Program-made: the position numbers and the translations under genes
From: Naegleria gruberi
Taxonomy: Eukaryota
Assembly (NCBI GenBank): GCA_000004985.1
Contig: GG738883.1
Strand: one strand, 5' to 3'
DNA length: 64,000 bases
Notes under the pieces: model-generated
Told to the model about the DNA's origin: nothing
Databases searched by the model: none
Seen by the model: only the letters and a program-made list of their open reading frames with translations
Shown: positions 32,022 to 45,516 of the stretch, one piece after another
Layout of the letters: each line of letters opens with the position of its first letter
How positions within the stretch are numbered: the stretch's first letter is position 1

Positions 32022-34926
32022 ATGAAGAGAAAGATAACCTCCATATCTACTTCTTCATCGCAACAAATGGAGGATGTTGTTGCAGCTACAGAATCATCAC
32101 TGGAAAGTTTGAATAAGAAGATGAAACAATATTTGCAATCGGATAACAAGGTATTGGCAATTTCGGAAGTTATGGATGAAGTAAAGGAGAGTGAAGAATT
32201 AATTATGATCGGAAAGGAGCAACAAGAAAATATGCCAAGTGATGACTCTCAAATTTCTATTGGATCCATTGGATCAATTTTGTTGGAGGATGAAAATTAT
32301 ATTTCTGTAAAAGAGGATCAACCATACTCATCAACGGATTTCAATGATGAGAATGAAGAGGAAGTTGACCACATAAATACTATTCCTGTGGTAAATGTCA
32401 AAATTAAAGAAATTAACAATGCTATGGATTTCTATGGACTACCACATTCGTGTGCTGAATTATTCAAAGAAGTCAAAGGTGTTCACAAGCTGTATGAATG
32501 GCAAGAGCAGTTATTGAGTATGCCAGAACTCAGGATGGGTAAAAACGTACTGTACTCCCTTCCAACATCAGGTGGTAAAACCCTCATTGCAGAAATTCTC
32601 ATGATTAGAACTTGTCAACTAATGAAAAAGAAATCCCTGTTCGTTTTGCCATATGTTTCAATATGTGAGGAAAAAACTACTACTATGGAGTTGATAAGCG
32701 ACCAAATGAATTTCTTTGTTGAGGGATATTTTGCGTCTAAAGGTAAAATTCCAGTAGATCCTGGAAACCAACTCATTATTTGTACAATAGAAAAGGCAAA
32801 CCTTATTTTGGATAATTTAATTCGAGAGGAAAGAATACATGAACTAGGATGTGTTGTTGTGGATGAACTTCACATGATTGGAGAAGGAGGAAGAGGACAA
32901 CTTTTGGAACAATTAATATCAAAAATTTTATATATTCAAAGAGAAAAGAAAACTGTAGAAATTATTATAGACGACGAGTTAGAAAACACTACACAAACTA
33001 AGATAGAAAACATATCAATTCAATTAGTTGGCATGTCAGCCACTATTCCTAATCTCGAGCAAATAGCTCAATGGATGGATGCTGTATTATTTAAATCTGA
33101 TTTTAGACCTGTTCCTCTGAAGGAATTTTATTGTATTGGCGAGAATGTGTTTGATAAGGAGGGAAACACTGTTAGGACTCTCACCTCAATTCCTTCTGAA
33201 ATGGGAAAGGGTAAGAATGATCCTGATTTTATTACTTCTTTATGTTGTGAGGTCATTCCTGCCAAAAGTGCTCTGATATTCTGCCCAAGCAAACAATCGT
33301 GTGAAGATTGCGTAAAACATTTAACTTGTACATTACCACTTTCCAATGATTATGTCCATGAGAAGAAAGATTTAGTTGCTAACCTAAAGCTTATTGGTAC
33401 GAATGATACCAATTTATTTAATGGAATTATGTACGGAGTTGTCTATCATCATAGCTCTTTGACATCTGAGGAACGACAACTCATCGAGAATGCCTACAGA
33501 AACCATATTATTTGTGTAATTTGCTGTACAAGTACACTTGCAGCAGGTATTAACCTTCCAGCTGCAAGAGTGATCTTTAACACTCCGTATATTGGTTTCA
33601 AACAATTTTTAACAAAATCTAAATATATGCAAATGAGTGGCAGGTCAGGAAGAGCAGGTATTGACAGTTTTGGTGAGAGTTATCTTGGTAAGTTAATTTT
33701 TGAATCGGTCATCTAAGCATAATACCATAGTACTTCAGAAACAATATAAAACTCAAGTGGATGGCGGAAAGGATTTAATTGCCAAAAGACTTGAGAATGT
33801 AAATAGTTGTATTAATTTATCAGACACAGATTCTCTCAGTAGAATTTGCATGGAAATTATTTCTAGCAATCTAATTTCTTCAATGAATCAAATTGAGAAA
33901 TTTGTGGAATGTACATATTTTTCTTACCAAAATCCTTCTATGAAATCTAATTTGGTAGAAAAGTTAAACGAGGTCTCGCAACAATTGATAACAAACAATC
34001 TGTTGCAAGTATCACCAGAAAGTTTTAAATTTGAAATGACCTCACTAGGTATGGGAACGAGTAGAAGTGCTCTCACATTGAAAGAATCACTTGATCTTAC
34101 AGTAATATTACAACAAATTCAAGATGATGGAATAATAATTAGTGACGATTTACATATTCTGTACGTAATTGGTGTACCAATTGATGGAAATGGACTAATC
34201 GAGCCAAATTATGTCAAGTTGCTGAACTATTTGGAACAATGTGCAACACCACTAGAAAAAAAAATAATAGCTAGAATTGGCATTCCAGAAAATGCAATTC
34301 TTACAAAAGCAATGAACAAGTATTCAAAAATTAGTGATGCAGAACAATATACAATTAAGAGACTATACAATGCATTCATTATCAGAGATTTAATTAATGA
34401 GAGAACAAACTTTATTGACCATTGTGAAATTAAGGGAAGAGGAATGATACAACAATTAATGAGTCAAGCTTGTACCTTCTGTAGTATGGTCCAACAATTT
34501 TGTGAAACATTGGAATTTTGGCAAATTGCTAAAATTGCAAAGAAATATATTAGAAGAATCCAATACGGTGTCAAGTCAGACATAGTCGATTTGGTTCAAT
34601 TGGAAGGTGTCAAGAGAGCAGAAATTGCCAGAATTTTGAAAGAAAGCAGCTTGAGTTTAGAAATACTTTCCAAGCTTATTTCAGAATGTGAGGATGAAGA
34701 AATTCCACCCTCATTCCTAGAATTCGAAAATCCTCTTTCCCTTACTATTCACCAAAAATTACTTTCTCAAATACTTTCTCTTTCACATTGGAAAGAGGAA
34801 CAACGAACATTTATTCAAACATATTTCACAATTGAAAGGGTTGAAGCAATGGTTTACTCTGCCAAAAGAGAACTATCTAAAAAGGCCTTCTACCTTAGAC
34901 AAAAGGCCGATACATTGGACTATTGA
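32022..34926 (+). CDS. Hel308/HELQ (Mus308)-like superfamily-2 DNA helicase, 2 exons (32022..33687, 33730..34926)
   Basis: Walker A LPTSGGKTLIAE; DExH VVVDELHMIG; SATIPN; HHSSL; TSTLAAGINLPAARVIF; MSGRSGRAG. A 42-nt GTAAGT...CATAG intron joins the helicase core to the C-terminal winged-helix/ratchet region. Confidence 0.85.
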
Positions 34927-35540: not shown

Positions 35541-38500
35541 ATGTCAGACCATAAGTTGAAAAAAATGTTTGTTGGTAGCCCATGTCAATACCTCCTTATT
35601 GGGGTAATTGTTTTGCATGCATGCTTGTTTGCTTGTTGCTATCAACCACAGTATGACATGTCTGTTGTGGCAGGTGGTGGATCTTCAATAGGTGATGGAT
35701 TATTAGCAACACAAGCATTGTTATCAGTACCAAGTGGTGGAATTGTTTCAAATTCTGATATTATATTCTGTGATACTAATAATCATAGAATACGTAAGAT
35801 AGATGTGAATGGTATCATGTCAACTATTGCTGGTACTGGTGTTGCAAATTATTCTGGTAAGTTTATAGACTTCACATTGTTCAACAACTTTGGTCAACTC
35901 ACATGCATGTGCAATTCAAATAGGAGATGGAGGAGCCGCAGTTAATGCACAACTAAACTCACCTCAAGGAATTGGAATACTATCAACTGGTGCCATTGTA
36001 TTTTCAGATACATTAAACCACTGTATTAGAAAGATTGAAAATGGAATTATTTCAACATTAGCAGGTAATGGATCACCAGGATTGACAGGTAAGTTTTATA
36101 TGCATACACATGATCTTCTAAAAACCTTGTAGTAGTTGGATCAGCAATCAGTGCTCAATTAAACACACCAACTGCTCTAATTGTTGCAAGTAATGACATT
36201 TATTTTGCTGAAAGTGGAAACCATCTCATTAGAAGAATTAGTTCTTCTGGCATGTTAACAATCTACATTGGAGAGTCAAGTGGAACATCTGGTAGTTCTG
36301 ATACAGGTACAGCTGGAGCATCATTCAAAATGAATACACCAATGGGAATTGTTTTCCATGCAGGAAATTTATACTTTTCAGATTCCAAGAATTATAGAAT
36401 TTGTGTAACCTCTGGTGCATTGATTTCTGTTTTCAAAGCATCATTGACAAGTGAACCACTTGGATTAGCTAGTTATAATGGTAATCTGTATATTGCCATG
36501 AAGGGAAACAAGGTTTTACAAGCAAAGAATTCGAATACAATCATTGATTTTGCTGGAAGTGGAACGAGTGGATATTCAGGAGATGGAGGATTGGGTACAT
36601 CTGCTTTATTGAATGGTCCATCTGCTTTGGCTTTTGATTCGAGTGGAAATTTGCTCATTTCAGATTCTTTCAATAATAGAATTAGAAAAGTTGCAAATGG
36701 AACTATTTCAACTTTGGCTGGAAATAGCAATAGAAATTTTGGAAATGGTGTTTTGGGAACATTGGCTTCATTTTCCTCTCCAAATAGTGTTTATTATACA
36801 GGAAATGATGATTCAGCAGGTGGCATTTTGATTTCTGACACAAATAATCATGTTTTAAGAAGATTGAAAGATGGATACATTTATAATGTGATTGGAAATG
36901 TTGCAATTCCTGGAAACAACAATGGAAATGGAGTGAATGTCAATGATGCAACAGTGAATTCACCTCCATTTGTCATGAAGAGATTTGGTGATTTAATTTA
37001 CTTTTTAGATAATAATGGATGTGCATTGAGAAGAATTGAATCGAATAATGTTTTAACACTTGTGGTAGGAAGTTGCAATACTGCCAATCAAGATTATTTC
37101 CTTTCCAAATCATTTGACATTTCCAATGATGGAATTATTTATATTGCTGATTATTACAATAATAGAATTGCCAAGTTTGAGATTAATAATTCCACTTTGA
37201 CAACCCTTGTTGGACGTTCCTTAAAAGGATTCTTAGATGGAATTGGGTCGAATGCCTTACTCAACTATCCTGAAAGTCTTATTATTGGACCTGATAATAT
37301 GATTTACTTTTCAGATCGTGATAATAATGCAATTAGATCTGTGTCCACAAGTTCTGCTTTGGTTACAACTCTGGCCGGTGACAGATTTAATGGATTTCTT
37401 GGAGATGGTGGTCCAGCTAAATCATCAAGACTTGATTCACCAGGACCTATTCAGTTGACATTAGGTGGTGAGATAATTTTCATGGACAGAGGAAATCAAA
37501 GAATTAGAAAGATTACAAAATATGGAAATATTTTTACTATTTATGGAAATGGATCAACAAGTGTTTTTAAAGATGCTAATGGTTTAACACTTGGTGGAAG
37601 TGGTGAAATTTACATTGCAGATAGTGGAAACAATCTCATCAAAATGTTATCTGCTGCCAAATGTTCAAATGGAACTTTTTACAATTCTTCATCATTTGAA
37701 TGTCAATGTACAGCTGGTTTCTATGGAGAGAATTGCTTGGAATATGATTGCTCAGGAATCAATTGGAGAAACTCGTCCGTTTGTTCAGGAAGAGGTTCAT
37801 GTATTGCGAAAGAAAAGTGTTCTTGCTCTGCCAATTTCACAGGAAGTAATTGTGAAGAATACTATTGTTATGGAGTTAATTCAGTGAATAGCAGTGTTTG
37901 TTCATCCAATGGTCAATGCACAGCTCCAGATAATTGTACCTGTTCATTTGGAACATTTGGGTTGAATTGTGAAAATGCTTATTGTCAAGGAATTGTCTCT
38001 TGGAATGAAACTGTTTGTAATTCGAGAGGAAAATGCATTGGCTACAACAAGTGTACATGCAATAATGGATTTTATGGCAATAATTGTGAATTTTACAATT
38101 GTTTCGGAGTTAAAAACACTGACAGCTCAATATGTTCAGGAAATGGTATTTGTTCCAAAATTGATAATTGCACTTGTTTTGATGGATATTTTGGAAATAA
38201 CTGCTCTGATTTCAATTGTGTTGGAGAGCAGTATATTGGAAAGAACTTGTGTTTGAATAATGGCTCATGCACTGGTCCAGGTGATTGTAAATGTTTGCCT
38301 GAATGGGGTGGCAACATTTGTCAACATGTCAAATGTTTTAACAAGACAGCTGTCGATTCAAATGTTTGTTCATCACATGGTCAATGTTTGTCTTTTAATA
38401 ATTGTTCATGTGATCCAAGATGGATTGGCAGTGATTGTGGCGTGACCACTTGTTTTGGTCAATTATCAAATGATTCGAATAGAGTTTGTTCATCATATGG

Positions 38501-41500
38501 TCAATGTTTAAATCCAGATCAATGCTCTTGTAATAATGGATACAGAGGTGATGAATGTGAATATAGAGTGTGTTATGATTTAATTCACACAGATCCAAAT
38601 GTTTGCTCCTCACATGGTCAATGTGAATCACCAAATAATTGTAAATGTGAAAATGGTTTTGTTGGGGAGAATTGTCAATATCACCAAGTTTATTTAGACA
38701 TTTCAAATGCATTGATTTATTCATATTTTGATTCACTTTTAAATATTTCAACAACAATTGATGGAGGTGATCAAGTATTGTTGAGTAGTGAATGTCAAGA
38801 TTTATTCGAAAGTTCAGAATTGATCAAATTGGGAGAAGCTGATTTGATATCCTGTTATTGGACACCAAATTATTTCAAAATCAAATTGGGATATAATCAC
38901 ATGATTGAACATTTATCCACATTGAAACTGAATTCAAATTTCAATATTTCACTTCAAGTCAATTCAAATTCTTCTTTAATTTTACTCAATCAGCGAACAT
39001 TTTCCTCTTCAATGGATACTTTACTTTTATACATTCCATCCAATCAAGATTTTATCATCAAATCCAGCAGTGATGATTATTATCATACATTTAAGAAAGT
39101 TTCAAAAAGTTGGACATGTGAAAACTGTCCTCAGCCACTTGTCAATTATTTAACAAATTATGAAAATAAGAGTATGATTTTAATACCAACTTCATTGCTG
39201 AATAGCATTCCATTAGATTCTTCATATTCTAAAATTCTTTCACTTAAATATTCATCCATGAATTCAATTCAAAAATCATTGACATCAAGCGACAAGACAA
39301 GAATTGAATCTAATAAGAATTTACCTCCCTCTTTCACATGGCATGGGGATAATGTAAAGGATACACAATTTAAATGTGTTGGACATAATTGTATTATTGA
39401 AAGTTCATTGAATTCAATGAATAGTTCACTTTCATTTACATTCTCTGGATTTTTCAGTTTATTGAATTCACTCTTTTCACAAAAACAAATGTTTAGATTG
39501 GTAAATGTTTATAATAATGAATTGGTGGACAGTGAATATTCATCCAATGCACAAATAGTTGGATTTCAATTGAAAACCTATGTTTCCACTTCACTTTCTT
39601 ATTATTTCTCATATTCAACATTTGATAGATTGGATCATGTTTTGACAAATGTGAATAGAACTCTATCTCTTGATGATTCTAAATTTACAATTTCAATATT
39701 CAATCAAGATCCTTTCATTTCAAGTTTCACATTACCTGAATATTTCACATTCAATTACCAATTTTATCAAATTAATTCAATTGACAATAATTTAAGTAGT
39801 AGTGAAAAAACATTGAATATAGATGTTGAAAAATTGAATTTATCAGAAGGAATGTATTTAGTGAACTTGACACTAACAGTTTCCAAGTCATATGTCACAA
39901 TTCCATATTATTATTTTGGATTTATTCATTTTTATGCTCAATCAAATGTTCCAAAATTAACAATTGATCAATTACCTGCTATTTATCCTTCCAAAAAGGA
40001 TTTACATTTGAAAGTATTGATTCAATCATCAAGTGCAATTCAAAATTATAAATGGAAATTAAAAGAAGGTTTAGTGAAAGAAAGGAAAATAATTGGACAA
40101 TTTTTGGAAAGTTCACAATTTACTCAACTCACGTCTAATACATACAAGAGTGAAATTATAATTAATAGTCAATATTTATTGGAAGGTGAATTTATTTCAT
40201 TTGATTTTTCAGTTTCAAATATGAATGGAATGTCAAATGTTTCATTATCAACTAGAATTGATGAATCTCCAAGATTTTCATGTGAATATTTCAATTTAAA
40301 GAATGAATTTACAAATTATGCATTTGATTCACTTCTTTCCATTTCATGTTTCAATTTACCTGAAGAACCAATTTCAAGTTTTAATTTTGAATTTCATTCC
40401 ATTTATGGAAAGAGATTAAATATCATTTCCAATACATTGAAAAAGAATATCATTACAAGAATACCAATGTACTCATTTGAAGAAGGTAAAATCAATCTTG
40501 TTGTAAAATTAGTGAATAGATATGGCTCAGTTTCACAAATCTCAAAAACTATTTCAGTTTTACCTCCATTAACTATTTACAATTCACAAAATTCAATTCT
40601 ATCAAGATTTAATTATTTTAAACAATCTTTTTATAATTTGAAGTTGAATGAGCCATTGAGAATTGATACTGCTCATTCAATTTATTCCTTAATGAGTATT
40701 CTCATTCAGAACGAAACCATTTCGAATATAAAAGGACAATTAGTGAATGAATTAACAATGGATCAATTATCAACATTTAATTCATTGTTGAAAGATATGA
40801 TTAATCAATTGAAAAGTATTCAATCGTTGACATATAAGGTTGATGAAAAGATAATTCAATTGACACTTCCAATAATTTCACAAATTTATTCGATTCTGGA
40901 TAATTTATCATTGGATGAAAGTTGGATTTCAGATATTTCAAGTTGGCTTGATTGGATTTATTCTGGAATGTCAAATGCCAAACAATATTATTCAGAAATA
41001 TTATTAGAAACTGTACTTTCCACTGAACATTATTCAGAATTGAAAATTATTCAAAATATACTTTCAAAAAGATATTCTAATAGATTGGATAAACAAGAAT
41101 TAATTTCAAAATATAGAGCTCAATATTTAATGTTGACTAAACTGAACGAATCATCAGATGATTCATCTTTTGAAATTTATCAAATAGATATTGCTTCTCA
41201 ATTAAATGGCAAGTCAATTACAACAAACATCAATCAAGATATTCAAATTCAAGCCATACTTCCATCAGATTTAACAAGTCAAGTGTCAAATATTGAAGAT
41301 AATTCACAATTATTTTACTCTTCATCATTAATTTCAAATGACAAGACATTGAATAATATTTTAACAAATAGACCTATTTTGGAATTATCAATTTTTTCAA
41401 AAGATGGTTCATTGACAAGTGTGAATAATTTACAGAATCCAATTCAATTGAAATTCAAAAATTTATTTACAGATTACAAAATCTATACTAATTTATCATG

Positions 41501-42801
41501 TGTTTATTTTGATGCTTCATCAAATGGATGGTCAACCAATGGAATTACAGCCAAATCAACGATAATCAAACAAGAAAATGGAAAATTGTATTTTGAAATG
41601 GAATGTAACACAACTCACTTGTCTTTATTCTCAGTTCAAGAATATAATTTCATTTCAATTCCAGTTGTTATCAACTCAAGTCAACCTAGAAATGAAATAG
41701 ATACAAATTTAGGATTAATTCTTGGATTGGCACTTGGCATTTCTATTCCAGTTGTGTTAATGATAGTGTTTGTTATCATTATCATTGTGTTATCTGTATT
41801 TGTGTGGAAATTAAAAACTAAGAGAACACGATATGATATTGAAATGACAGGAACTGATTTTCCTGATTCGAGTATGTTCCTGACACCACTTGTTAGCGTT
41901 TCAGGAAGTTCAAATGAAAGTTTCAATCCACTTTCAAGATATTTAGATCTAGTTAGAATTGGTCAAGGAGCATTTGGCTCAGTTTTCAAAGCAATGGATT
42001 CAAAAACAAATACAATGAAAGCAATCAAAGTGATGAGATATCAAACCAATGAAGAATTGAATGGATTTATGAAAGAAGGAACTCAATTAATGAATGTCAG
42101 TCATCCAAATATTTTGAAAGTGAATGATTTCTTTATTAGTCAAGATAATTTATTGTGTATTGATATGGATTTTTATGAAAAGGGTGATTTGGTTCAATTG
42201 ACCAATGAATCTTTCATTTGCTCAGAGAAGATGTTGCTTCAAATTATTTATCAAATGTTAAATGCATTGAATTATATTCACAACTCAATGAAACTCATTC
42301 ACAGAGATATCAAACCATCAAATATTTTCATCAAATCAATCGATAATGATAATATTCAAATTGTAATTGCTGATTTTGGATTGGCAAGGGCAGATCAAGG
42401 TTCTGCTCACAAATCATATGCTGGAACTCCTTTATTTATGGTATGTTATTTATCAATACTTTGGCATGTCAATTCTAACATATATTACTGTTAACTTGGA
42501 GGAATTATAGTCACCTGAACTTGGATATGGCGGAAAGTATTATTTCAATACAGATATTTACAGTTTAGGAGTCACTCTTTATCAAATCATGACCAAAGAT
42601 ACTCAAACTTCAATTAGTCAACTATTAATCACAAAAGATAAACTTGAAGTGAATACAATTCTCAAACAAAAATTTGATGAGCGAAGAATTTACTCATCTG
42701 AAGTTATTGATTTGGTCATTTCAATGTTAGAAAAGGATTTGACAATCAGACCACAAGCAACAACTCTCCTTAGCAATCATCTTTTCAAATCATTCCAATA
42801 A
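35541..42801 (+). CDS. giant single-pass receptor Ser/Thr kinase with NHL-repeat + EGF-like (tenascin-type) ectodomain, >=5 exons (35541..35856, 35924..36088, 36133..42440, 42511..42801)
   Basis: Signal-anchor N-terminus. About 10 NHL repeats are split by a 67-nt and a 44-nt GTAAGT intron. About 14 Cys-rich EGF-like repeats (C.C..G..G..C) follow, then a ~1000-aa S/N-rich extracellular region and TM segment GLILGLALGISIPVVLMIVFVIIIIVLSVFVW. The kinase has IGQGAFGSVFKA, HRDIKPSNIFI and ADFGLAR. A 70-nt GTATGT...TATAG intron splits GTPLFM|SPE. Confidence 0.85.
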
Positions 42802-42836: not shown

Positions 42837-45516
42837 TTAATTGTCATTACTTTTCTTCAACTCATTATTAACATCTTCAAGGCATTTTGTTGCCGAATGA
42901 TATTTACAATTAATCATGTCTTTCAAAACAGAACATAAACCTTCAATTTCTGTAAATGCAAAATGAGATTGCAAAATATCAACTTGCACAATGTGTGATG
43001 ACATTTTGTCGCATACAAGTCTTGAATGTCTCATCATCAGTTTAATTAAAACAACTGCCAGAGCATAAAGATCATGAGTAGGAGTAAATCTATAGTTGAT
43101 ATCTGTGGGGGTGTAGTCTGGTTTAAAATGTAAACAAGTTTTTGCATATTCAGAATTCATAATACTAGAATTATTCATGTCAATAATAACTGGTTCATTG
43201 TAATTTCTAAACATAATATTATTTACACTAATATCACAGTGAACGACATTATTGGAATGTAAACATTCAAGACCTTTCAAGCACCCAATGAAAACGTTTT
43301 GCAAGAAACACTCAAAGTTATTGCTATTGTAGGCATAGGTATGGTCAAAACAATCCAAAGGTTCCATTGCTGTAATTGTTATATTAGAACAATTCCATCC
43401 GGATACATCACTGATTCGGTTGCTAGTGTGTACATACTTATAAATACGACAAATATTTGGGTGTGAAATTGTTGTAACCAAGTTCATTGTATCAATTTTC
43501 TCTGACATTGTTTTTGAAAGTTTTACAAACACTTTCAATCCTGAATTTTTCATTAAGCCTGTTCCTATAATTTTCCTTTCATCAATTACTATATTATCAA
43601 AGTCAGATATGCCAGAACTATCTAATTGAATAACACCAGTGTTGTTAAATTCAGAATCCGTATTGTTTTCACTGCAGTTATTGTCGTTACTGTTAGTATT
43701 ATTGTCATCATTGTTATTGCTATTACTATTCAAATATTTCAATACCAAACAATATTTTGAAATCTTTTCAGTAATATAGTATAACTTGGAGTTAATTTTA
43801 AAAAGAATTAATACATCTGTCATATCTGAATGGGGATAATACAAAAGAGGGGTGTTGGACACAATGTATATCAGCCCTTGTTTGTTCCTTTTTACATGTG
43901 ATATTATGTCCATATTATTAACTATAGTTGGTTGTCTTGTTGATAGTACAAAAGAGAGTTTGTTTTGCAACCATTCTTTAACTGATTCAAACGTTGCAAA
44001 GTCTTGAATAACCAGAAATTGGAATGGATGTAACTCTTCCTTATAATCAGCAGTTAATATGTTTGTAATATCAATTCCGTCGTCATTAATATCGAAAGAC
44101 TTGGAAACTTTCAGCTCACAATGCGGGTTATTTAAATTCAAGTTGAACCAATATTTACAATTTTTGAATAAAGTAATCATAATCTCTGCAAGATCCTTTG
44201 GATTTGTAAAATCATACCACTCTGAAACATATAAATGGTATGCGGCTCTGCAGCTATTCTCTTTTGGTATAGAATTAGGGATGCATATAAGTCGAAGAAA
44301 GCAAAGTTTTGTGCCACCAGTCAAGGATCCATACATGTTAAGAACTGTATCAACTCCAAATTTATTGCGAAGCAATAACTCTTGGGACAATTCTGTTAGT
44401 GAGCTACGTAACAGTACTACAATTTTAATAAAGTCTGGATGATCGAACACCTTTGAATACTCATTTGGATTATATTCGGCATAAAAGCATCTCCATTCAT
44501 AATTTGGAAGAAAACTGTTTTGTAAGAATAATACTTTGTCTGGTTTAAAGTATGTTTGAGTGAAGTATCTTGTCACTCTAGTGTGGTTCGATAGTACTGT
44601 GTCTTTAATTTTACTAATAACAATGTTAAAGATGTTAAAAAATATCTTACCTGAATGAAGAAAGAACGTCATCAATGAAGTATGATTTTGTGAATGTCAA
44701 AAAGTTTTGGGAATTGATATTTAACTCGTTAGCTGAGAACATTTCCACAAGGACTTGTTTCAAGCAATCAATTGAATCATCTTGCTCAAGGTGAAGAGAA
44801 TTCATATCTTTCAAGCAAATAAGAGATGCAAGAAAGAACTTTTCCAAGTTTTTGTATCCAGCCCCCAATACCATATTATTTACAACCACCATATTCTTAT
44901 TGGCAGACTGAATATTTTGAGTAGTAATTCCAAGAGCTGTCAATACTATATATGAAAGAGAATAGTCAGAGAAAATCTTAACAGCCTCGCCCCAGTTCTC
45001 TTTTTTATCCTCTGGAACAACTAGGTCCTCTTTGTTATAGGCATTCACCTTATGAACTGATAAGATTTTTGGTGCTTTGAATGTTGGCAATATTGGAAGG
45101 GCTGAACGTGTATCCCTGTTGTAAAGAGAAGGCCAGAGAAATGTAGCATTGTTGTCTGTGATAAGGGCCCACACTGGCTCATTGTTTTCAAAGTTACTTT
45201 CTTCCTCAAATCCGGGAATAATGATTTTGTGCCTTTTTCTTCTTTTTCTTGTGTGTTTGCTTGGAATCAAAGTCTTTGGATCAAACGAATCATCCATCAC
45301 AGCTTCGGGAGTAACAGATGAATAACCTGTGTGGTAGTACACCACAGGGTCATCACTAGTTTCCATCATTACGACCAATTTTGTTGTTTCGTCCATGACA
45401 CTCACTATGGAAATTCCTAAAAACTCAAGCTTTTCCTTCAGAGCATCAATGCTAGGATAAAACTGAAGTGTGTACCAACAAATGTAAGCCTTACTTGGTG
45501 GATTTGGAGCAAACAT
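42837..45516 (-). CDS. protein kinase-like domain protein (probable pseudokinase), 2 exons (45516..44651, 44613..42837)
   Basis: A 37-nt GTAAGA...TTATTAG intron joins ORF 44647..45516 to ORF 42837..44675. The C-terminal domain has a kinase-like catalytic loop VVHCDISVNNIMF (HCD instead of HRD) and DMN instead of DFG. Confidence 0.65.

What the first reader, a model, noticed from the sequence alone, without database searches (positions are those of the whole stretch)
35541..42801. About 2300-aa single-pass receptor kinase combining NHL beta-propeller repeats, ~14 EGF-like repeats and a cytoplasmic Ser/Thr kinase
Reconstructed from five exons; the track shows it as four separate ORFs. The ectodomain is unusual: NHL repeats then tenascin-like EGF repeats, and a ~1000-aa S/N-rich region. 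The kinase domain is split by an intron exactly at GTPLFM|SPE. NHL + EGF + kinase is not a metazoan receptor layout, which suggests a lineage-specific sensing receptor.
Basis: partly seen in the sequence, partly recalled or inferred. Interest (0 to 1): 0.55.

Follow-up and report, generated by a model that had tools for sequence, protein, structure and literature searches.

The report
Naegleria receptor kinase with GAIN domain

Summary
The gene is real and is one gene on the + strand, 35541-42801. It has 4 exons and 3 GT..AG introns of 67, 44 and 70 nt, not 5 exons and 4 introns, and encodes 2359 aa. The window is Naegleria gruberi.

Confirmed parts:
- a signal-peptide-like N-terminus
- about 12 NHL blades
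- 8 full and 1 partial teneurin-type EGF repeats, not about 14
- one TM helix
- a Ser/Thr kinase with all catalytic motifs

New result: the last ~370 ectodomain residues form a GAIN domain with an intact GPS site (H1989-L|S1991), about 30 residues before the TM.
- AlphaFold2 gives pLDDT 82.8.
- Pfam GPS matches 10 of 11 family members.

Full-length relatives occur only in Naegleria. I found no description of GAIN + single TM + kinase in the papers I searched.

The most likely mechanism is a self-cleaved two-fragment receptor kinase. Cleavage and signalling are inferred, not shown.

The parts
35541..35856 (+). Exon 1: start codon, signal-peptide-like segment (aa 9-36, 35565-35648) and first NHL blades. 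The public model starts at the second ATG, 35565.
35857..35923 (+). Intron 1, 67 nt, GTAAGT...TAG. Retaining it shifts the frame.
35924..36088 (+). Exon 2: NHL blades (YSGDGGAAVNAQLNSPQG...).
36089..36132 (+). Intron 2, 44 nt, GTAAGT...TAG. A tandem TAGTAG acceptor is present: the public model uses 36135, while 36132 keeps the same length as paralog P0002.
36133..42440 (+). Exon 3 (6308 nt): remaining NHL blades, EGF array, beta-rich region, GAIN domain, TM helix and kinase N-lobe up to GTPLFM.
42441..42510 (+). Intron 3, 70 nt, GTATGT...TAG, between kinase subdomains at GTPLFM|SPE. Public models P0001 and P0003 read through this same position, and P0002 is spliced here.
42511..42801 (+). Exon 4: kinase C-lobe (SPELGYGGKYYFNTDIYSLG...) and stop codon TAA.
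35658..37655 (+). NHL region, aa 40-668, about 12 blades (probably two six-bladed propellers). Spans introns 1 and 2.
37662..38675 (+). Teneurin-type EGF array, aa 671-1008: 1 partial and 8 complete six-Cys repeats of about 39 aa.
38682..40550 (+). Conserved beta-rich region with no assigned family, aa 1011-1633. Only aa ~1445-1535 (39984-40256) is modelled confidently, as a beta-sandwich. Two of the 5 aligned family members give weak PKD-domain hits.
40569..41138 (+). GAIN subdomain A, aa 1640-1829, a bundle of 9-10 helices.
41172..41642 (+). GAIN subdomain B, aa 1841-1997, a beta-sandwich. It contains the GPS motif (aa 1950-1997, 41499-41642).
41616..41624 (+). Codons for H1989-L1990-S1991. 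The predicted scissile bond lies between 41621 and 41622, in the turn before the last GAIN strand (SLFSVQE).
41712..41798 (+). Single transmembrane helix, aa ~2021-2049, followed by the basic stop-transfer sequence KLKTKRTR.
41949..42783 (+). Ser/Thr protein kinase domain, aa 2100-2354 (spans intron 3). Motifs: G-loop GQGAFG 2104, K2126, E2142, HRDIKPSN 2217, DFG 2241, SPE 2264.

Best explanation
This is one Naegleria gruberi gene (4 exons) for a type-I receptor Ser/Thr kinase.

Shown:
- The architecture is: signal peptide, about 12 NHL blades, 9 teneurin-type EGF repeats, about 620 aa of conserved beta-rich domains, a GAIN domain with an intact GPS site (HL|S), about 30 residues of stalk, one TM helix, a conserved juxtamembrane segment, and a kinase with all catalytic motifs.

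Inferred:
- The GAIN domain cuts its own chain between L1990 and S1991 during biogenesis. S1991 would be the nucleophile and H1989 the base, as in adhesion GPCRs and polycystin-1.
- This would give a ~1990-aa N-terminal fragment carrying the binding modules and a ~369-aa C-terminal fragment carrying the last strand, TM helix and kinase.
- The two fragments would stay together because the last GAIN strand (SLFSVQE) belongs to the C-terminal fragment.
- Ligand, particle or substrate binding to the NHL/EGF part, or mechanical pull on it, would then strain or remove the N-terminal fragment. That would change the clustering or conformation of the TM-kinase fragment and switch Ser/Thr phosphorylation inside the cell.
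For: Gene model:
- Canonical GT..AG introns restore one frame.
- The recovered C-lobe matches paralog P0002, N. fowleri P0122/P0143 and the intronless paralog on L001.

Domains:
- Pfam identifies NHL, EGF and kinase domains.
- Hydropathy shows a signal segment and one TM helix.

GAIN domain:
- Pfam GPS gives E 5.5e-4 on the fragment. It matches 10 of 11 family members, best E 6.8e-6.
- The motif C..W...G...C...HL[ST].F is invariant in all 11.
- In a profile search of PDB sequences, the top 4 hits are all adhesion-GPCR GAIN domains, aligned in register.
- The AlphaFold2 model of aa 1634-2009 has pLDDT 82.8 and pTM 0.79. It shows a helical subdomain plus an 11-strand sandwich, with HLS in the turn before the last strand.

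Kinase:
- All catalytic motifs are present.
- It is the most conserved part of the protein: 92% identity to P0002 and 64% to N. fowleri.
Against: - No transcript or protein data were available, so splicing, cleavage, surface location and kinase activity are all untested.
- The Pfam GPS score for this protein itself (20.8 and 18.1 bits) is just under the 22.5-bit cutoff.
- Only one of the two canonical GPS disulfides is present. From memory, polycystin-1 shows the same pattern.
- Some GAIN domains with a consensus site do not cleave.
- The tethered-agonist mechanism of adhesion GPCRs needs a 7TM pocket and cannot apply here, so the link between the GAIN domain and the kinase is conjecture.
- The structure model rests on an alignment of only 11 sequences.
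Confidence: 0.7

Rival explanations
1. The architecture is as described, but the GAIN domain does not cleave. It would serve only as a rigid juxtamembrane stalk. The receptor would signal like ordinary receptor Ser/Thr kinases, by ligand-induced dimerisation or clustering.
For: - From general knowledge of the family, several adhesion GPCRs have GAIN domains that are not cleaved.
- The GPS score of this protein is below the Pfam cutoff.
- The second GPS disulfide is missing.
Against: - H, L and S/T at positions -2, -1 and +1 are invariant across all 11 family members, even though overall GAIN-B identity is only 23-41% outside the closest paralog (79%). This suggests selection on the cleavage triad itself.
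- From memory, HL|S is a cleaved site in EMR2/CD97.
Confidence: 0.25
2. The locus is not one gene: the N-terminal NHL exons, or the last exon, belong to separate transcripts.
For: The public model omits exon 4.
Against: - The NHL blade repeat continues in frame across introns 1 and 2.
- Retaining any of the three introns shifts the frame.
- Without exon 4 the kinase lacks subdomains VIII-XI. Exon 4 supplies exactly those, and is 90%+ identical to paralog P0002.
- Paralogs and the N. fowleri ortholog have the same end-to-end architecture.
- The upstream gene ends at 34926, and the downstream gene is on the other strand.
Confidence: 0.03
3. This is a decaying or non-functional paralog in an expanded family (a pseudogene or pseudokinase).
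For: One paralog (P0142/P0121) has lost HRD (now HGN) and part of the G-loop, so the family tolerates dead kinases.
Against: This copy has an intact 7080-nt CDS, all catalytic motifs, and 92% kinase identity to P0002.
Confidence: 0.02

Closest known systems
Adhesion GPCRs (e.g. BAI3/ADGRB3, latrophilins, GPR110, GPR126, CELSR1)
   Different: The membrane part is one TM helix followed by a Ser/Thr kinase, not a 7TM domain. A tethered-agonist/G-protein mechanism is therefore impossible. The HormR domain is absent. One GPS disulfide is missing. The organism is a heterolobosean (Discoba), not a holozoan.
Polycystin-1 / PKD1-like / sea-urchin REJ proteins
   Same: These are non-GPCR membrane proteins with a GAIN/GPS domain after a long beta-rich ectodomain. 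From memory, the PKD1 GPS also keeps only the first and third Cys (CxYF...W.T.G[LI]...C.T.HL[TS].F), the same pattern as here.
   Different: There is no PLAT domain, 11-TM domain or channel part. The REJ domain was not detected by Pfam, and the structural test failed for lack of a confident model. The cytoplasmic output is a kinase.
Receptor Ser/Thr kinases (plant RLKs such as EGF-bearing WAKs, TGF-beta receptors, Entamoeba TMKs)
   Same: Type-I topology: signal peptide, ectodomain, one TM helix, and a cytoplasmic Ser/Thr kinase with HRD.K..N.
   Different: The kinase is not TKL/IRAK-like. Its best solved relatives are STE20-like, NEK and CAMK kinases at about 101-95 bits. As far as I know, none of those families has a GAIN domain or NHL propellers.
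Mycobacterial PknD-type NHL sensor kinases
   Same: A Hanks-type Ser/Thr kinase is coupled through one TM helix to an extracellular NHL beta-propeller. Bacterial NHL proteins are the best non-Naegleria matches to the NHL part, and one is named PknD.
   Different: The order is opposite: PknD has the kinase at the N-terminus and the propeller at the C-terminus. PknD has no EGF or GAIN domain and a single propeller.
Teneurins
   Same: The Pfam models that hit best are the teneurin NHL and teneurin EGF models.
   Different: Teneurins are type-II proteins with EGF before NHL, plus a YD shell and a toxin-like domain, and they have no kinase or GAIN domain. The resemblance here is at the level of single modules only.
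Naegleria NHL-EGF-GAIN-B-TM proteins without kinase (e.g. XP_002672731, XP_002678376, N. lovaniensis A0AA88KJU5, named 'GAIN-B domain-containing protein')
   Same: They share the same lineage, the same NHL + EGF + GPS (HLTSFAVI) + single TM plan, and a homologous GAIN-B subdomain.
   Different: They are about 1000 aa long. They lack the ~620-aa beta-rich region, GAIN subdomain A and the kinase, and have only a short cytoplasmic tail.

Membership tests
GAIN domain (GPCR autoproteolysis-inducing domain) | GPS motif with Cys/Trp framework and H-L-[T/S/C] at the cleavage site | tested here: met
   The motif is CVYFDASSNGWSTNG...ECNTTHL|SLFSV, aa 1950-1997. Pfam GPS gives E 5.5e-4 and 20.8 bits, just under the 22.5 cutoff. 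It matches 10 of 11 family members, best E 6.8e-6. The motif is invariant in the family. Only the Cys1-Cys3 pair is present.
GAIN domain (GPCR autoproteolysis-inducing domain) | Two-subdomain fold: helical subdomain A plus twisted beta-sandwich subdomain B, with the GPS forming the last strands | tested here: met
GAIN domain (GPCR autoproteolysis-inducing domain) | Position immediately before the first TM helix | tested here: met
   S1991 lies about 30 residues before the TM helix, which starts near aa 2021.
GAIN domain (GPCR autoproteolysis-inducing domain) | Actual cis-autoproteolysis | not testable with these tools
   This needs protein expression and mutagenesis (H1989A, S1991A).
Adhesion GPCR (class B2) | Seven-transmembrane domain after the GAIN domain | tested here: not met
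   Only one hydrophobic segment follows the GAIN domain, and a kinase domain follows that.
Polycystin-1 / PKD1-like | REJ domain before GAIN; PLAT domain and 11-TM/channel region after it | tested here: not met
   Pfam finds no PLAT, PKD_channel or REJ hit, and there is a single TM helix. A REJ-like fold for aa 1011-1633 remains inconclusive, because the model has pLDDT 52.
Receptor Ser/Thr protein kinase (type I membrane) | N-terminal signal sequence, one TM helix, positive-inside rule | tested here: met
   Hydropathy peaks lie at aa 9-36 and 2021-2049, followed by KLKTKRTR. This used a Kyte-Doolittle scan, not a dedicated predictor.
Receptor Ser/Thr protein kinase (type I membrane) | Complete eukaryotic protein kinase domain with Ser/Thr-type catalytic loop | tested here: met
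   Pkinase scores E 7e-51 and 173.5 bits, against 110.6 bits for PK_Tyr_Ser-Thr. GQGAFG, K2126, E2142, HRDIKPSN, DFG and SPE are all present.
   The best solved relatives are STE20-like SLK, NEK1, CAMK1/CDPK and MST3. The nearest database relatives outside Naegleria are only 31-40% identical. No major kinase group can be assigned.
Teneurin | Type-II topology, EGF then NHL, YD-repeat shell | tested here: not met
   The topology is type I, NHL precedes EGF, and no YD/Rhs hit was found.

The most novel reading that the evidence does not exclude
The GAIN domain here works as an autoproteolytic, force- or ligand-sensitive latch on a receptor kinase. Shedding or straining of the NHL/EGF fragment would activate the TM-kinase fragment. 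This would show that GAIN-based two-fragment signalling is an ancient, output-independent eukaryotic module. It would be present in Discoba and coupled to phosphorylation, rather than an adhesion-GPCR/polycystin speciality. Naegleria might use it to sense prey, substrate or other cells.
Probability: 0.25. Interest if true: 0.75.

Novelty: new variant of a known kind. Interest (0 to 1): 0.5.

Why it matters
GAIN domains are studied almost entirely in adhesion GPCRs and polycystins, where cleavage creates a two-fragment receptor and, in adhesion GPCRs, a tethered agonist. A GAIN domain placed directly before a single TM helix and an apparently active Ser/Thr kinase would matter in three ways, given that the organism is very distant from animals:
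1. It would extend the known outputs of GAIN domains.
2. It would give a simple system for asking what GAIN cleavage does when no 7TM domain is present.
3. It would add a defined family of candidate surface sensors in Naegleria, with an ortholog in the pathogen N. fowleri.

There is also a practical gain. The public protein model for this gene, and for paralog P0003, is truncated inside the kinase and should be corrected.

Tried and rejected
- REJ-domain hypothesis for aa 1011-1633. Pfam found no hit even at E 10. A PDB profile search gave only noise, with titin and SEC13 at E above 0.1. The AlphaFold2 model was poor (pLDDT 51.9, pTM 0.33), with only aa ~1445-1535 confident. The hypothesis stays open and the region is reported as unassigned.
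- The search for homologous proteins with the middle region returned nothing, even though P0001 is in the database. This looks like a tool artefact. It was replaced by the exhaustive profile search.
- Paralog DNA and transcript support. The look-up of encoding contigs had no record for P0002 or P0148. Only the pseudokinase paralog was found, on a metagenome contig, L001. No transcript-derived copy of this protein exists in the clustered database: the P0001 cluster has a single member.
- Foldseek against afdb50, to look for GAIN + kinase in other protists, could not be run because the library was unavailable.
- Literature. Naegleria + GAIN domain gave 0 papers. Searches for Naegleria with kinome, NHL/EGF or extracellular domain gave nothing relevant. 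GAIN domain + protein kinase domain gave one unrelated review.
- TKL classification was rejected.
- A fifth exon was rejected. The upstream gene ends at 34926, and exon 1 already carries the ATG and the signal sequence.
Full report
**What is there.** The window is AT-rich (about 33% G+C), gene-dense eukaryotic DNA. Four + strand ORFs lie between 35541 and 42801. Three short canonical introns join them:
- 35857-35923 (67 nt, GTAAGT..TAG)
- 36089-36132 (44 nt, GTAAGT..TAG)
- 42441-42510 (70 nt, GTATGT..TAG)

The spliced CDS is 7080 nt with no internal stop and encodes 2359 aa. None of the intron lengths is a multiple of three, so retaining any intron breaks the frame. The gene therefore has 4 exons and 3 introns, not the 5 and 4 reported.

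**Organism and public record.** The protein is 99% identical to a 2271-aa "predicted protein" of Naegleria gruberi (P0001).
- That public model starts at the second ATG and uses the second AG of a TAGTAG acceptor at intron 2.
- It reads through the last intron and ends ...GTPLFMVCYLSILWHVNSNIYYC, so it lacks kinase subdomains VIII-XI.
- Paralog P0002 (74% identical) is spliced at this point and continues SPELGYGGKYYFNTDIYSLG..., nearly identical to exon 4.
- Paralog P0003 shows the same read-through artefact at the same codon (FM|VSFF...), so the intron position is shared.
- An intronless paralog on a metagenome contig (L001) and the N. fowleri ortholog carry the same C-lobe without interruption.

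This is comparative support for the model. No transcript data could be obtained.

**Domain anatomy.**
- Pfam gives NHL/TEN_NHL, EGF_2/EGF_TEN/EGF_Teneurin and Pkinase (aa 2100-2354, E 7e-51).
- A hydropathy scan finds only two hydrophobic segments. One is a signal-like segment at aa 9-36. The other is a very strong one at aa ~2021-2049, followed by KLKTKRTR. This indicates type-I topology with the kinase in the cytoplasm.
- N-glycosylation sequons are about twice as dense in the ectodomain: 35 in 1982 aa, against 3 in 309 aa of the cytoplasmic part.
- The NHL region (aa 40-668) has about 12 blade-like repeats, most simply two six-bladed propellers.
- The EGF array (aa 671-1008) has 52 Cys arranged as one partial and eight complete six-Cys units of about 39 aa. 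That makes about 9 repeats, not about 14.

**The overlooked part: a GAIN domain.** Just before the TM helix the sequence reads CVYFDASSNGWSTNGITAKSTIIKQENGKLYFEMECNTTHLSLFSVQE. This has the Cys/Trp framework and the HL|S site of a GPCR proteolysis site. The evidence converges:
1. Pfam GPS matches a 101-aa fragment at E 5.5e-4 and 20.8 bits, against a cutoff of 22.5. Across 11 family members it matches 10, with best E 6.8e-6.
2. The pattern C..[FYL]...W...G...C...HL[ST].F is invariant in all 11, while the rest of the subdomain is only 23-41% identical outside the closest paralog (79%).
3. A profile of the region searched against all PDB sequences returns four adhesion-GPCR GAIN domains as its top four hits (GPR56 twice, ADGRL3, GPR97). 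They are aligned in register through HLT.FAV, with weak E-values of 0.03-0.4.
4. AlphaFold2 on aa 1634-2009 with the 11-sequence alignment gives pLDDT 82.8 and pTM 0.79. The model has a bundle of 9-10 helices followed by an 11-strand sandwich with two short helices. T-H-L-S lies in the turn between the last two strands.
6. The Foldseek top hit is the GPR97 extracellular region, probability 1.0.

I therefore treat the GAIN fold and an intact GPS triad as established at the level of prediction.

Only the first and third canonical GPS cysteines are present. From memory, polycystin-1 shows the same pattern.

**The rest of the "S/N-rich" region.** Residues 1011-1633 are conserved among paralogs (84%, 39%, 34% and 30% identity) and predicted to be beta-rich. 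No family could be assigned. The AlphaFold2 model was poor except for one beta-sandwich at aa ~1445-1535. My lead that this region is REJ-like, as in polycystin-1, remains untested.

**Distribution.** A profile of aa 1011-2015 searched against 1.84 billion representative proteins found only 23 proteins.
- Full-length matches are N. gruberi paralogs (P0001 with P0002, P0003, P0142/P0121) and N. fowleri P0122/P0143.
- A second set of about 1000-aa Naegleria proteins has NHL + EGF + GAIN-B (HLTSFAVI) + TM and a short tail, with no kinase. UniProt already labels one N. lovaniensis member "GAIN-B domain-containing protein".
- A few weak hits to the GPS part alone come from elsewhere, for example a Lapot gusevi transcript and a JGI protein named GPS motif.

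The receptor-kinase architecture is therefore seen only in Naegleria in this search.

**The kinase.**
- All catalytic elements are present: GQGAFG 2104, K2126, E2142, HRDIKPSN 2217, DFG 2241 and SPE 2264.
- The catalytic loop and the Pkinase-over-PK_Tyr score mark it as a Ser/Thr kinase.
- The best solved relatives are STE20-like SLK (101 bits), NEK1, CAMK1/CDPK and MST3.
- In the large database, eight more short Naegleria kinase models are 54-72% identical. Identity then drops to 31-40%, mostly bacterial Hanks-type kinases.
- It is a lineage-specific subfamily, not TKL, and cannot be placed in a major group with these data.
- It is the most conserved part of the protein.
- Paralog P0142 has HGN in place of HRD and a deleted G-loop, so it is probably a pseudokinase.

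**Mechanism.** The architecture is shown. The rest is inferred from established GAIN biochemistry (Arac et al. 2012, PMC3321182, read).
- The GAIN domain would cleave itself at L1990|S1991.
- The N-terminal fragment (propellers, EGF array, beta domains, most of GAIN) would stay bound non-covalently to the C-terminal fragment (last strand, stalk, TM helix, kinase).
- With no 7TM pocket, the tethered-agonist mechanism cannot apply.
- The plausible coupling is that binding or force on the N-terminal fragment strains or removes it, which would change clustering or conformation of the TM-kinase fragment.
- The main rival is a non-cleaving GAIN domain acting as a stalk, with ordinary ligand-induced clustering. 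I give this about 0.25.

**Comparison and novelty.** The protein works like a hybrid of an adhesion-GPCR or polycystin ectodomain and a receptor Ser/Thr kinase.
- It fails the membership tests for adhesion GPCRs (no 7TM), polycystins (no PLAT or 11 TM), teneurins and PknD-type kinases.
- It meets the tests for "GAIN-domain protein" and "type-I receptor Ser/Thr kinase".
- Published work places GAIN domains in Dictyostelium and Tetrahymena, and places the GAIN-7TM fusion in stem holozoans (PMC3321182, PMC12716839).
- I found no paper describing GAIN + single TM + kinase, or this Naegleria family. That library is incomplete, and I could not query domain-architecture databases.
- The sequence itself is already public, so this is a new variant of known kinds rather than a new category.

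**Verdict.** Interest is moderate at 0.5: the module combination is unexpected and experimentally tractable, but every functional step is still a prediction.

Noticed in passing
window 42837-44675 (-), possibly continuing to 45516: A convergent neighbour ends only 36 nt from this gene's stop codon. It encodes a 612-aa protein with a degenerate kinase-like domain (Pkinase E 4.7e-14), with HCD in place of HRD and no DFG, so it is probably a pseudokinase. It is unrelated to the receptor's kinase (22% identity, E 1e-4). The adjacent ORF 44647-45516 overlaps it by 29 nt and may be part of the same gene through an intron.
   Followed up: partly
window 32022-34926 (+): The upstream gene is a POLQ-like helicase (DEAD, Helicase_C, POLQ_helical and HTH_61 domains). 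It is split into two overlapping ORFs around 33700-33716, presumably by a short intron.
   Followed up: partly
public proteins P0001 (this gene) and P0003 (paralog): Both GenBank/JGI models read through the intron after ...GTP[LI]FM and end in about 17-20 junk residues, so the kinase C-lobe is missing. Both need re-annotation. The shared position shows that the intron predates the duplication.
   Followed up: yes
window 36130-36135: Intron 2 has a tandem TAGTAG (NAGNAG-type) acceptor. The two choices differ by one Val codon. The first AG keeps the same length as paralog P0002, while the public model uses the second.
   Followed up: partly
P0142/P0121 (N. gruberi paralog); L001 634-7134: This paralog has lost the catalytic HRD (now HGN) and part of the G-loop, but keeps the NHL-EGF-GAIN-TM architecture and the HLS site. 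Its 6.5-kb CDS has no introns on a metagenome contig (ERZ929261). It may be a pseudokinase co-receptor.
   Followed up: partly
window aa 2058-2098 (about 41823-41945): The cytoplasmic juxtamembrane segment (DIEMTGTDFPDSSMFLTPLVSVSGSSNESFNPLSRY) is conserved in P0002 and P0003 and is recognisable in N. fowleri. It is Ser-rich and may be a regulatory or phosphorylation segment.
   Followed up: no
P0147-P0154: At least eight further short (189-290 aa) Naegleria kinase models are 54-72% identical to this kinase domain. They may be fragments of other mis-annotated receptor kinases with different ectodomains.
   Followed up: no
The search for homologous proteins with aa 1011-2065 returned no hit at all, although P0001, which is 99% identical to my model, is in that database. 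This looks like a word-index or composition-filter artefact, so a negative result from that tool on S/N/I-rich queries should not be trusted.
   Followed up: yes
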